Of a DNA stretch of 38,106 nt, positions 11,331 through 11,667 are shown in pieces. The notes under the pieces are model-generated. The model worked only from the letters and a program-made list of their open reading frames with translations, searched no databases and was not told the origin of the DNA. Location: sequence record NZ_CP144727.1, one strand, 5' to 3'. Source of the DNA: a plasmid. Position numbers and translations under genes: made by a program. How positions within the stretch are numbered: the first letter of the stretch is position 1; each line of letters begins with the position of its first letter.

Positions 11331-11407
11331 GACTATAGCGTCAGTCCAGTATGATTTCCCAATACCCTGTAGCTATAGTTTCGATAGCTTCGAATCGGCA
11401 TTGCAGG
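11331..11407 (+). repeat. Copy A of ~75-bp conserved element (GACTATAGC...GCTATAGTTTCGATAGC...TTGCAGG)
   Basis: ~70% identical to copies at 11592..11667 (inverted) and 20619..20688 (direct). Confidence 0.6.
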
Positions 11408-11591
11408 CGTATCCCCGTCAGCGGATTTCGAGCGGACGCCGTCGCTTGCCAACGTTGGTGTGAGACCGGCGGGCGAGATCGCCCCTGCCAACGCGACCGC
11501 TGAGAGGTCGACTCCTCAACCGCTTGGGCGCTTATCGCCTCCATCCGGATGCTCACCCGCCGAACAGCAATAAACCGCTATTTTCGATAAA

Positions 11592-11667
11592 CTTCTGAAT
11601 CCGGCTCCGAGGTATGGAAACTATGTCGTACCGCTATTGGATATGTTGCGCGCATACCTTCATAGTC
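11592..11667 (-). repeat. Copy C of ~75-bp element, inverted; lies ~90 bp upstream of the MDR oxidoreductase gene
   Basis: Alignment to copies A and B. Confidence 0.6.

What the first reader, a model, noticed from the sequence alone, without database searches (positions are those of the whole stretch)
11331..11667. Three copies of a ~75-bp element with CTAT-N7-ATAG core placed upstream of the island's operons: candidate shared operator/promoter
Copies A (11331-11407, plus), C (11592-11667, inverted) and B (20619-20688) align at ~70% with conserved blocks GACTATAGC, ATCCAATA and GCTATAGTTTC(G/C)ATAGC, plus a GGAAAC box in the gene-proximal orientation. C lies ~90 bp upstream of the MDR oxidoreductase operon and B ~70 bp upstream of msrBA, each in the same orientation relative to its gene. 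A faces leftwards toward DNA now replaced by the mercury transposon, implying a third target operon was lost. The 5-bp inverted arms spaced by 7 nt (GCTAT-N7-ATAGC) fit a dimeric HTH regulator site (ATAG/CTAT tetramers recall LysR/OxyR-type sites). The GGAAAC box recalls ECF-sigma -35 elements that commonly drive msrAB. No cognate regulator gene is present in the window.
Basis: partly seen in the sequence, partly recalled or inferred. Interest (0 to 1): 0.7.

Follow-up and report, generated by a model that had tools for sequence, protein, structure and literature searches.

The report
Shared operator-promoter of a stress island
The three repeats are real: they are copies of one 57-bp promoter-plus-regulator-binding-site module that drives the operons of a mobile oxidative-stress (methionine-sulfoxide repair) island from Alphaproteobacteria, and in this DNA the island's own regulator genes have been cut away by transposons.

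Summary
Three copies share a 57-58-bp core: A 11331-11388, C 11611-11667 (inverted) and B 20618-20674. A strict pattern hits only these three, against 0.03 expected. The claimed ~75 bp is too long, because the outer ~18 nt are not conserved.

Read toward the gene, each copy is G[CG]TAT[CG][GA]AAACTAT[AG]-N9-[TC]ATTGG[AG]-N18/19-[CTG]ATAGTC. I read this as an LTTR (LysR-type regulator) operator of three TAT/ATA half-sites 11 bp apart, overlapping a weak -35, followed by a -10.

The same module occurs in 90 genome stretches, almost all alphaproteobacterial. It always lies upstream of and points at a gene: msrB, a Zn-dependent oxidoreductase, a redoxin-like gene, a small molybdo-oxidoreductase, OsmC-hydrolase or Dps.

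Intact islands (pFBAOT6, Rhizobium, Sphingopyxis) carry a LysR gene ending ~25 bp from copy B. It has four invariant cysteines, one aligned with OxyR Cys199. Here Tn5403 replaces it. Copy A's operon is lost at the mercury-transposon junction.

A second motif, palindrome P, marks the LysR and MarR promoters and sits in C's spacer. Assigning the element to LysR is favoured but unproven. The ECF-sigma and MITE readings are rejected. This is a new member of a known kind, of moderate interest.

The parts
11331..11388 (-). Copy A. Promoter-operator module firing leftward. On the minus strand: operator GCTATCGAAACTATAGCTACAGGGTAT (plus-strand 11362-11388), -35 TTGGGA (plus 11357-11362), 19-nt spacer, -10 TATAGT (plus 11332-11337). 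It is now an orphan: only 52 bp of its transcribed region remain before the mercury-transposon inverted repeat.
   Evidence: ancestral target shown
11611..11667 (+). Copy C. Promoter-operator module firing rightward into the oxidoreductase operon. Operator GGTATGGAAACTATGTCGTACCGCTAT (11611-11637), -35 TTGGAT (11637-11642), 18-nt spacer, -10 CATAGT (11661-11666).
20618..20674 (-). Copy B. Promoter-operator module firing leftward into msrB-msrA-GST-corA and the genes beyond. Operator is the reverse complement of 20648-20674. The scan tool calls -35 TGGATA (20647-20642) and, with a preceding TG, -10 TATAGT (20624-20619).
11642..11656 (.). P-like palindrome TATGTTGCGCGCATA inside the -35/-10 spacer of copy C. 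It is the second motif class of the island (consensus TATGCG-N3-CGCATA) and a candidate repressor (MarR-type) operator.
11760..16025 (+). Operon downstream of C: Zn-dependent oxidoreductase (MDR family), HbpS-like, DUF1330, redoxin-like hypothetical, DM13 and MFS transporter genes.
16059..20551 (-). Gene string downstream of B: msrB, msrA, GST (yfcG), corA, two hypothetical genes, RidA.
11240..11279 (.). Terminal inverted repeat of the mercury (Tn3-family) transposon. This is the junction at which the operon once driven by copy A was lost.
   Evidence: (I6)
11508..11610 (.). Remnant of the right end of an IS5-family element, abutting the upstream edge of copy C. It marks the upstream limit of the functional element.
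20689..24352 (.). Tn5403, with 42-nt inverted repeats. It begins 14 bp beyond copy B, where intact islands carry the 3' end of the LysR gene. The 5-bp flanks differ (CTTCA / AGTAT) and the right flank is unrelated DNA, so the regulator genes are deleted rather than merely interrupted.
   Evidence: (I5)

Best explanation
A, B and C are paralogous copies of one cis-regulatory module: a weak sigma-70-type promoter fused to an upstream binding site for a LysR-type transcriptional regulator (LTTR).

Read toward the gene, the module is G[CG]TAT[CG][GA]AAACTAT[AG]-N9-[TC]ATTGG[AG]-N18/19-[CTG]ATAGTC. If (C/T/G)ATAGT is the -10, the three TAT/ATA half-sites (CTAT-N7-ATA(C/G)-N7-(G/C)TAT) lie 11 bp apart at about -60, -49 and -38. 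The last one overlaps a poor -35 (TTGGAT or TTGGGA). That geometry suits an activator that recruits RNA polymerase, not a repressor.

The module belongs to a horizontally mobile alphaproteobacterial oxidative-stress / methionine-sulfoxide-repair island. There it heads the msrBA-GST-corA string (B), the oxidoreductase-redoxin-DM13-MFS operon (C) and a molybdo-oxidoreductase/reductase pair (A). In some genomes it also heads OsmC-hydrolase, Dps and other genes.

The most likely binder is the island's own LysR-type regulator. It has four invariant cysteines, one at the OxyR Cys199 position, and its gene ends about 25 bp upstream of copy B in intact islands. On that reading, oxidation of the regulator switches on all module-bearing promoters together.

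In this window the regulator (and the island's MarR) was removed at the Tn5403 junction, and A's operon was removed at the mercury-transposon junction. The three promoters are therefore orphans, running at basal level or under host factors.

Shown: the repeat, its conservation, its position and orientation, the synteny, and the loss of regulator and target. Inferred: the promoter hexamers and transcription start, the identity of the binding protein, activation, and the redox signal.

The confidence of 0.58 is for the whole statement, including LysR as the binder. For 'shared promoter/operator module' alone it is about 0.85.
For: Statistics of the repeat: 3 hits against 0.03 expected; alignment.

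Genome scan: 90 stretches with the strict 56-nt pattern, nearly all Alphaproteobacteria plus the plasmid copies.

Position and orientation: every instance is upstream of and oriented toward a gene. Targets are msrB (26), oxidoreductase (21), redoxin-like (8) and Mo-oxidoreductase (5-9), at distances of about 25-180 bp.

Further copies found with an HMM include one in the divergent LysR/OsmC-hydrolase intergenic region of L008. Operator-only copies lie before Dps and a gnd-like gene.

Fixed spacing: 72 distinct operator instances all have the 10-nt gap, although 9-11 nt were allowed.

Footprint: in the LysR-msrB intergenic region of 20 distinct sequences there are three near-invariant blocks, GCTATGGAAACTAT / GCGTATTGGATAA / CTGCGATAGTCG, separated by variable DNA.

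Promoter call: the scan tool calls TGGATA-17-TATAGT with an upstream TG at B.

Regulator linkage: the LysR gene sits next to B in pFBAOT6, in Rhizobium and in all 42 loci that contain both genes. The linkage holds for homologues only 63-68% identical. A 64% homologue that is not next to msrB, with no P motif found anywhere in its locus, still has the element 3.4 kb away.

Regulator features: the protein has HTH_1 + LysR_substrate domains, invariant C144/C170/C198/C238, and C198 aligned with residue 199 of OxyR 4x6g.

The other motif: palindrome P sits at MarR promoters (16/16) and inside core-promoter spacers, so it is the better candidate for the MarR site. That leaves the element for LysR.

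Window-specific losses.
Against: There is no binding, transcription-start or expression data.

Copies A and C do not reach the scan tool's E. coli sigma-70 threshold. Their -35 is poor and the spacing is 18-19 nt.

The strongest half-sites centre at about -60, -49 and -38, whereas a textbook LTTR regulatory site centres near -65.

The regulator's own promoter carries the other motif (two P palindromes, 44/45 loci). So does the promoter of a 71%-identical LysR paralogue in a locus with no MarR in view. This is what LTTR autoregulation at P would look like, so the assignment could be swapped: LysR binds P and MarR binds the element.

The co-occurrence of LysR and the element is largely synteny within one island family, so it is not independent evidence.
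Confidence: 0.58

Rival explanations
1. Swapped assignment. The island's Cys-rich MarR-family protein binds the element and represses these promoters by occluding the -35. The LysR protein binds the P palindromes at its own promoter and at the OsmC and MarR promoters.
For: Pairs of P palindromes precede the LysR gene in 44/45 loci, precede distant homologues, and precede a 71%-identical LysR paralogue where no MarR is in view. P also satisfies T-N11-A. In A-type copies the element's first dyad is a 17-bp palindrome, GCTAT-N7-ATAGC. The last half-site overlaps the -35.
Against: P lies at a fixed 73 bp upstream of MarR in 16/16 loci and before a second MarR paralogue, as expected for MarR autoregulation. 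P has 6-bp arms with a 3-bp spacer and sits inside -35/-10 spacers (OsmC-directed promoter, copy C). That is repressor/MarR-like geometry and matches the OhrR-Ohr/OsmC paradigm (own knowledge). The element has 4-bp arms with N7 spacers phased at 11 bp, as in the LTTR boxes ATAC-N7-GTAT and ATAG-N7-CTAT. It extends upstream of the -35. It is physically tied to the LysR gene, while the MarR position varies. L095 has LysR plus the element, with no P anywhere in the locus and no MarR called in it.
Confidence: 0.15
2. The copies are plain promoters kept similar by duplication and gene conversion within the island, with no dedicated regulator. Alternatively they are read by a host factor such as OxyR.
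For: The -10 and -35 blocks are part of the conserved core. The operator matches three of the four tetrads of the E. coli OxyR consensus ATAG-N7-CTAT-N7-ATAG-N7-CTAT (consensus from own knowledge; sequences). The module persists on plasmids that lack the island regulators, including this window.
Against: The block upstream of the -35 (G[CG]TAT..AAACTAT) is the most invariant part, across paralogues that otherwise share only 63-68% identity and across three orders of bacteria. 'Half' copies keep the operator plus ATTGGA while the -10 region differs, which argues for selection on a protein-binding site. A weak -35 with 18-19-nt spacing is typical of activator-dependent promoters.
Confidence: 0.12
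3. ECF-sigma-dependent promoter with GGAAAC as the -35.
For: GGAAAC resembles the GGAAC -35 of EcfG-type and other ECF promoters. msr genes are ECF-controlled in some bacteria (own knowledge; cf. PMC8315932 and PMC4436054, found).
Against: The two G's are not conserved: CGAAAC, CAAAAC, GAAAAC, AAAAAC and GATACC variants occur. The sequence 16-17 nt downstream is TTGG, not a CGT-type -10. No sigma or anti-sigma gene occurs in any of the island versions examined. The conserved blocks further downstream fit a -35/-10 pair instead.
Confidence: 0.03
4. Mobile-element ends or a MITE. A and C form a 337-bp inverted-repeat element, and C/B form inverted repeats bracketing the 9-kb island.
For: A and C are inverted relative to each other. 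C and B are inverted and flank the island segment in the window.
Against: The distance between A and C ranges from about 100 to 1060 bp in different genomes. Copies are found only in promoter positions of the same set of stress genes, never inside genes or at unrelated sites. The outer ends are not conserved. No transposase is associated. The window boundaries of the island are instead defined by the mercury-transposon and Tn5403 inverted repeats.
Confidence: 0.02

Closest known systems
OxyR operators and the OxyR regulon (E. coli consensus ATAG-N7-CTAT-N7-ATAG-N7-CTAT; own knowledge)
   Same: ATAG/CTAT-type tetrads alternate in orientation and are phased every 11 bp. They lie upstream of and overlap the -35 of several oxidative-stress promoters. 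The candidate regulator is an LTTR with a cysteine at the Cys199 position within a C-x-FRD context. Some source databases auto-name homologues 'hydrogen peroxide-inducible genes activator'.
   Different: Only three of the four tetrads are conserved. The regulator scores 71 bits against the NCBIfam OxyR model, whose cut-off is 329, and it lacks Cys208. It has four other invariant cysteines. The regulon is methionine-sulfoxide reductases, oxidoreductases and transporters rather than katG/ahpCF. The whole system is on a mobile island.
Generic LTTR promoter architecture (regulatory and activation binding sites, T-N11-A; BenM/CatM-type box ATAC-N7-GTAT; own knowledge)
   Same: B-type copies contain an exact ATAC-N7-GTAT. 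All copies keep T-N11-A twice. The site abuts the -35 of a weak promoter. An LTTR gene is adjacent.
   Different: The LTTR gene lies in tandem upstream of the target, not divergent (except L008). The best-conserved half-sites lie at about -60 to -38, and no conserved palindrome is centred at -65.
LsrB, the second redox-sensing LTTR of Rhizobiales (PMC11975290)
   Same: An alphaproteobacterial, cysteine-based redox LTTR that controls antioxidant genes, including msrA.
   Different: LsrB is chromosomal, co-located with trxB, and has cysteines at 144/236/244/273. The island regulator has cysteines at 144/170/198/238 and sits next to msrB.
OhrR-ohr (MarR-family repressor of an OsmC/Ohr peroxidase gene; own knowledge)
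   Same: This relates to the island's second motif, P: a short palindrome inside core promoters of an OsmC-domain gene and of MarR genes.
   Different: It concerns P, not the A/B/C element. The island MarR has a C-terminal cluster of five cysteines (C134, C137, C138, C142, C145) rather than the N-terminal sensing Cys of OhrR.
msrB-msrA-yfcG-corA 'backbone/passenger' segment of IncP-6, IncU and blaAFM/blaKPC plasmids (PMC4785139, PMC9984417)
   Same: Same DNA. The 9.4-kb island is 100% identical to pFBAOT6 and to many Enterobacterales and Aeromonas plasmids.
   Different: Those papers describe gene order only. Neither mentions a regulatory element or the LysR link.

Membership tests
LTTR-dependent promoter (operator with T-N11-A boxes next to a weak promoter) | T-N11-A box or boxes with dyad character, upstream of or overlapping the -35 | tested here: met
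   CTAT-N7-ATA(C/G)-N7-(G/C)TAT is present in all 72 distinct instances with fixed spacing. It is present in A, B and C.
LTTR-dependent promoter (operator with T-N11-A boxes next to a weak promoter) | An LTTR gene adjacent to the regulated promoter | tested here: met
   Met in intact islands: the LysR stop codon lies about 25 bp from copy B in pFBAOT6, in Rhizobium, in 42 loci and in 63-68% homologues. In the window itself the gene is absent, replaced at the Tn5403 junction.
LTTR-dependent promoter (operator with T-N11-A boxes next to a weak promoter) | Divergent arrangement with the operator in the shared intergenic region (autoregulation) | tested here: not met
   Only L008 has a full element in the LysR/OsmC-hydrolase divergent region. 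Elsewhere that region carries the P palindromes instead.
LTTR-dependent promoter (operator with T-N11-A boxes next to a weak promoter) | Demonstrated binding of the LTTR and inducer-dependent activation | not testable with these tools
   Needs EMSA/footprinting and reporter assays.
OxyR regulon (operator and regulator) | Four ATAG/CTAT tetrads phased at 11 bp | tested here: inconclusive
   Three consecutive tetrads are conserved. The positions where a fourth would lie, on either side, are variable.
OxyR regulon (operator and regulator) | The regulator is an OxyR orthologue | tested here: not met
   NCBIfam OxyR model (NF008361): 71 bits against a cut-off of 329. The best hit is CynR at 80.6 bits, also below its cut-off. 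PDB OxyR 4x6g gives only E = 4.5e-13.
OxyR regulon (operator and regulator) | Redox pair Cys199/Cys208 | tested here: not met
   Invariant C198 aligns with residue 199 (chain position 205 of 4x6g). The Cys208 position is D-H-F in the island protein. Other invariant cysteines are 144, 170 and 238.
ECF-sigma promoter | Conserved GGAAC-type -35 and a CGT-type -10 located 16-17 nt downstream | tested here: not met
   The box varies: GGAAAC, CGAAAC, CAAAAC, GAAAAC, AAAAAC. The position 16-17 nt downstream reads TTGG.
ECF-sigma promoter | A sigma/anti-sigma gene pair linked to the regulon | tested here: not met
   None is present in the window or in any island version examined.
MITE / transposon terminal repeats | Copies scattered at unrelated sites, forming a unit of constant length | tested here: not met
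   All 103 strict instances and the HMM-found copies are in promoter positions of island genes. A-C spacing varies from about 100 to 1060 bp.
Sigma-70-type promoter | -35 and -10 hexamers with 16-19-nt spacing | tested here: inconclusive
   B passes the scan (TGGATA-17-TATAGT, 9/12, TG present). A and C do not reach the threshold. By eye they read TTGGGA-19-TATAGT and TTGGAT-18-CATAGT.
Known RNA family | Match to an Rfam covariance model | tested here: not met
   There is no hit at 11200-11800. At 20500-20750 there is only a chance-level snoRNA hit (17.5 bits against a gathering score of 44).

The most novel reading that the evidence does not exclude
The island is a self-contained, horizontally mobile, two-tier redox regulon. 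A Cys-rich MarR acts on palindrome P at the promoters of the regulators and the OsmC operon. An OxyR-like four-cysteine LTTR acts on the 57-bp element at up to seven effector promoters. The system would be specialised for methionine-oxidation / reactive-chlorine damage, and it now hitch-hikes with carbapenemase genes on clinical plasmids. In truncated versions such as this window, the orphan promoters match three of the four OxyR tetrads. They may therefore have been captured by the host's own OxyR, wiring foreign repair genes into the enterobacterial peroxide response.
Probability: 0.15. Interest if true: 0.65.

Novelty: new member of a known kind. Interest (0 to 1): 0.42.

Why it matters
This 9-kb segment is usually annotated only as msrB-msrA-yfcG-corA 'backbone' or passenger DNA. 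It is 100% identical on many Aeromonas, Klebsiella, Enterobacter and Citrobacter plasmids, including blaKPC and blaAFM contexts.

Three consequences follow from showing that its operons share one conserved operator-promoter, that the cognate regulators exist in the ancestral alphaproteobacterial island, and that they are deleted here:
- It gives a concrete, testable model for whether these stress genes are expressed on resistance plasmids, for example under bleach or oxidative stress in hospitals and wastewater.
- It defines the regulon of an uncharacterised OxyR-like LysR regulator.
- It supplies a compact motif that can be used to find further members.

It is not a new kind of mechanism.

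Tried and rejected
ECF-sigma reading: rejected, because the box varies and there is no suitable -10 or sigma gene.

MITE / terminal-repeat reading: rejected on position, orientation and variable A-C spacing.

RNA-element reading: no Rfam family matches.

Membership in named LTTR families: CynR, OxyR, GltC, AlsR and others all fall far below the NCBIfam cut-offs.

Literature: searches for msrB/LysR/hypochlorite, pFBAOT6, msrB-msrA-yfcG-corA, Sphingomonas chlorine islands and alphaproteobacterial LysR/msr promoters found no description of the element or its regulator. The library is limited to open-access papers.

ORF-calling artefact: my first pass suggested msrA lay 356 nt downstream of one element type. 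tblastn showed msrB directly after it.

LysR/OsmC-hydrolase intergenic region: I looked there for a degenerate copy of the element. It holds a different motif, P. That opened the swapped-assignment rival, which I could not eliminate.

Python searches failed on missing files and were repeated.

I did not run structure prediction on the LysR, because it is not a window protein and so was not admissible.

I did not use the metagenome scan.
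Full report
**1. The observation**

The three copies are real. The pattern CCAATA-N10-ATAGTTTCSATA, searched with up to three mismatches, finds exactly three sites in the 38,106-bp window: 11359-11386 (+), 11613-11640 (-) and 20645-20672 (+). 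Shuffles give 0.03 expected matches. MAFFT aligns the copies at 71% mean column identity, with invariant GACTAT, CCAATA and ATAGTTTC.ATA blocks.

Over the 57-58-nt cores, pairwise identity is 63-68%. Local scores for A-B and B-C are 17-21, against a background of 6.7 +/- 1.1 with a maximum of 12.

The conserved unit is A 11331-11388, C 11611-11667 (inverted) and B 20618-20674. In C they belong to the remnant of the right end of an IS5-family element.

**2. Where the copies sit in the window**

The window is a mosaic, and the relevant pieces are as follows.
- A mercury Tn3-family transposon carries ISApu2 and ISApu1. It ends with its inverted repeat at 11240-11279.
- A 9.4-kb GC-rich (60%) segment occupies 11280-20688.
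- Tn5403 follows at 20689-24352, with 42-nt inverted repeats.
- The 9.4-kb segment is 100% identical to part of the IncU plasmid pFBAOT6 and to many Aeromonas and Enterobacterales plasmids.
- In the resistance-plasmid literature it appears only as the msrB-msrA-yfcG-corA cluster (PMC4785139, PMC9984417).
- C lies 92 bp before the ATG of a Zn-dependent oxidoreductase operon: oxidoreductase, HbpS-like, DUF1330, redoxin-like, DM13, MFS.
- B lies 67 bp before msrB, which is followed by msrA, GST, corA, two hypotheticals and RidA.
- A points leftward and is followed after 52 bp by the mercury-transposon inverted repeat.

**3. Relatives**

Beyond it lie a divergent alpha/beta-hydrolase-OsmC gene, a second msrA, a second oxidoreductase and a MarR gene. 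A Rhizobium indicum megaplasmid is about 85% identical. It has all three copies at homologous positions, with B again between LysR and msrB.

*Genome scan.* I scanned one genome per species with GACTAT-N20-23-CCAATA-N10-ATAGTTTYSATA. This returned 90 stretches. Almost all come from Sphingomonadales, Hyphomicrobiales/Rhizobiales and Caulobacterales, together with the plasmid-borne copies in gamma- and beta-proteobacteria.

*Position and orientation.* Every instance lies upstream of a gene and points at it. The targets are:
- msrB (26 instances);
- the oxidoreductase (21);
- the redoxin-like gene (8);
- a 200-aa molybdopterin-binding oxidoreductase (Pfam Oxidored_molyb, E = 4e-38; A-type copies);
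- a divergent MsrA-like/metallo-beta-lactamase-fold cluster.

*Island layout.* Synteny is conserved: Mo-oxidoreductase <- A ... C -> oxidoreductase operon; RidA...msrA-msrB <- B <- LysR; -> OsmC-hydrolase-msrA2-oxidoreductase2; MarR.

*Further copies.* An nhmmer model built from the copies found more.
- A full copy lies between LysR and the OsmC-hydrolase gene in Sphingopyxis witflariensis (L008).
- 'Half' copies keep the operator and ATTGGA but have a different -10 region. They lie upstream of Dps and a gnd-like gene.

**4. Anatomy**

Read toward the gene, 72 distinct instances fit G[CG]TAT[CGA][GA]AAACTAT[AG]-N9-[TC]ATTGG[AG]. All have the same 10-nt gap although 9-11 nt were allowed. Full copies continue with an 18-19-nt spacer and (C/T/G)ATAGTC.

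The LysR-msrB intergenic region from 20 distinct sequences shows three near-invariant blocks separated by variable DNA. These are GCTATGGAAACTAT, GCGTATTGGATAA and CTGCGATAGTCG. A conserved Shine-Dalgarno region follows.

The consensus scan calls a promoter at B on the correct strand: TGGATA-17-TATAGT with an upstream TG. A and C do not reach the E. coli-based threshold. By eye they read TTGGGA-19-TATAGT and TTGGAT-18-CATAGT.

If (C/T/G)ATAGT is the -10, the operator is CTAT-N7-ATA(C/G)-N7-(G/C)TAT. Its half-sites centre near -60, -49 and -38, and the last one overlaps the -35. This amounts to two overlapping T-N11-A boxes. B-type copies contain an exact ATAC-N7-GTAT and A-type copies an exact GCTAT-N7-ATAGC. 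Both are classic LTTR box forms, and the phasing matches three of the four tetrads of the OxyR consensus (consensus forms from my own knowledge).

**5. The candidate regulator**

The island LysR has HTH_1 and LysR_substrate domains. It is below the cut-off of every curated NCBIfam LTTR model; OxyR scores 71 bits against 329. Its closest solved relatives are NtcB, OxyR and CbnR, at E = 1e-13 to 1e-11.

Across 22 distinct island versions, which are at least 74% identical, four cysteines are invariant: 144, 170, 198 and 238. They persist in homologues only 63-68% identical.

In the phmmer alignment to Pseudomonas OxyR 4x6g, C198 falls on residue 199 in a conserved x-FRD context. The Cys208 position is not a cysteine.

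Homologues down to 63% identity are still followed by a diverged copy of the element and by msrB. A 64% homologue that is not next to msrB still has an element 3.4 kb away, and no P motif was found anywhere in that locus.

The window itself has no trace of the LysR or MarR genes.

**6. A second motif, and the main uncertainty**

The LysR/OsmC-hydrolase intergenic region does not carry the element, except in L008. It carries two copies of a palindrome 40 bp apart: TATGCG-N3-CGCATA, which I call P.

P occurs in these places:
- upstream of LysR in 44/45 loci;
- upstream of the MarR gene in 16/16 loci, at a fixed 73 bp;
- before a second MarR paralogue (32% identical);
- inside the -35/-10 spacer of some C-type copies, including the window's C (11642-11656, TATGTTGCGCGCATA).

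So the island has two regulators and two motif classes. I favour P as the MarR site and the element as the LysR site, for three reasons.
- P has 6-bp arms with a 3-bp spacer and lies inside core promoters. It also accompanies MarR genes and an OsmC-domain gene, as in the OhrR/Ohr paradigm (own knowledge).
- The element has LTTR geometry and lies upstream of the -35.
- The element is physically tied to the LysR gene.

The swap is not excluded. P pairs also precede LysR homologues and a 71%-identical LysR paralogue where no MarR is in view. That is what LTTR autoregulation would look like.

**7. What happened in this window**

*At B.* The pFBAOT6 sequence ...GAAGCTCTTCA|CGTCGTGATTCAGTTCC... (3' end of LysR) is replaced after CTTCA by the Tn5403 inverted repeat. 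The other side of Tn5403 is an IS110-family fragment, and the 5-bp flanks differ. The regulators and the OsmC operon were therefore deleted, not merely separated.

*At A.* Homology to L076 (a Methylobacterium MAG) and L072 (Aeromonas rivipollensis plasmid) starts exactly at 11278, at the end of the mercury-transposon inverted repeat. In those loci A drives the Mo-oxidoreductase gene 177 bp downstream, followed by a ferredoxin-reductase-like gene.

All three modules are intact, but their likely activator, their likely repressor and one of their operons are gone.

**8. Rivals**

- ECF-sigma promoter: the GG of GGAAAC is not conserved, no CGT-type -10 follows at 16-17 nt, and no sigma gene is linked.
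- MITE or terminal repeats: copies occur only in promoter positions of island genes, and A-C spacing ranges from about 100 to 1060 bp.
- RNA element: no Rfam family matches.
- Plain promoters or a host-OxyR site: cannot be excluded. However, the most invariant block lies upstream of the -35, and it survives in half copies whose -10 region differs.

**9. Verdict**

The finding is correct in observation and largely in interpretation. It is a shared LTTR-type operator-promoter module of a mobile alphaproteobacterial oxidative-stress island, a new member of a known kind. I found no description of it in the searchable literature.

I am about 85% confident that it is a promoter/operator module. I am about 55-60% confident that the island LysR is the protein that reads it.

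Noticed in passing
window 11642-11656; L001 16365-16419 and 20326-20340; L002 17912-17966 and 15151-15165: A second conserved motif, the palindrome TATGCG-N3-CGCATA ('P'). Two copies 40 bp apart lie upstream of the island LysR gene (44/45 loci). One copy lies 73 bp upstream of MarR (16/16). One lies in the -35/-10 spacer of copy C in the window. It is probably a MarR-type repressor operator.
   Followed up: partly
window 11508-11610: About 100 bp resembles (75-83% identity) the last 80 nt of IS5-family transposase genes plus the element end in sphingomonad and acetic-acid-bacterium plasmids. It is an IS remnant abutting the upstream edge of copy C.
   Followed up: partly
window 20684-20688 and 24353-24357; 24353-24690: Tn5403 (20689-24352) has no matching 5-bp target duplication (CTTCA versus AGTAT). 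Its right flank is the 3' fragment of an IS110-family transposase gene, not the LysR gene expected from pFBAOT6. This implies a deletion or recombination at the transposon.
   Followed up: partly
window 11240-11280 and 37886-37926: These are 41-nt inverted copies (78% complementary) of a Tn21/Tn3-family terminal repeat. The mercury transposon therefore appears to span the window's ends, so the window may be a circular plasmid or have been cut inside the transposon.
   Followed up: no
window 344-418: Five perfect tandem copies of the 15-mer GTCTGAACCACAAAA lie at the start of the ORF 342-752. They would encode a repeated SEPQK peptide.
   Followed up: no
window 27545-27638: Six copies of an 11-bp-phased repeat (ACTACAGATAA-like) are present, which look like replication iterons.
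   Followed up: no
window 28340-28933 / 30379-30972 and 28279-28347 / 31079-31147: A 594-nt inverted repeat (98%) and an outer 69-nt inverted repeat (94%) bracket about 1.4-2.7 kb. They are probably two inverted IS copies or a composite element.
   Followed up: no
window 9037-9138 / 9779-9880 and 7748-7822 / 11090-11164: ISApu2 and ISApu1 lie in inverted orientation, with 102-nt (91%) and 75-nt (75%) inverted repeats. They sit inside the 3' end region of the mercury transposon.
   Followed up: no
L001 19776-20267 (MarR) and L037 7289-7825: The island MarR proteins end in a cysteine cluster (CRLCCYEGCTNC in L001, CRFCDEEKCTNC in L037). This is unusual for the MarR family and suggests a metal or redox sensor.
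   Followed up: no
L017, L026, L027, L029, L032, L042, L052, L056, L075, L081, L092: One LysR-element-msrB variant has an identical 135-nt stretch (core plus 40 nt each side) in Sphingobium, Aliihoeflea, Sphingopyxis, Xanthobacter, Mesorhizobium, Agrobacterium and Aurantimonas genomes. This indicates very recent horizontal spread of the island among Alphaproteobacteria.
   Followed up: no
L098 771-1643 and 6001-6873: Two paralogues of the island LysR lie in one locus: the LysR at 6001-6873 and the LysR2 at 771-1643, which are 68% and 71% identical to the island protein. Each is preceded by a pair of P-like palindromes.
   Followed up: partly
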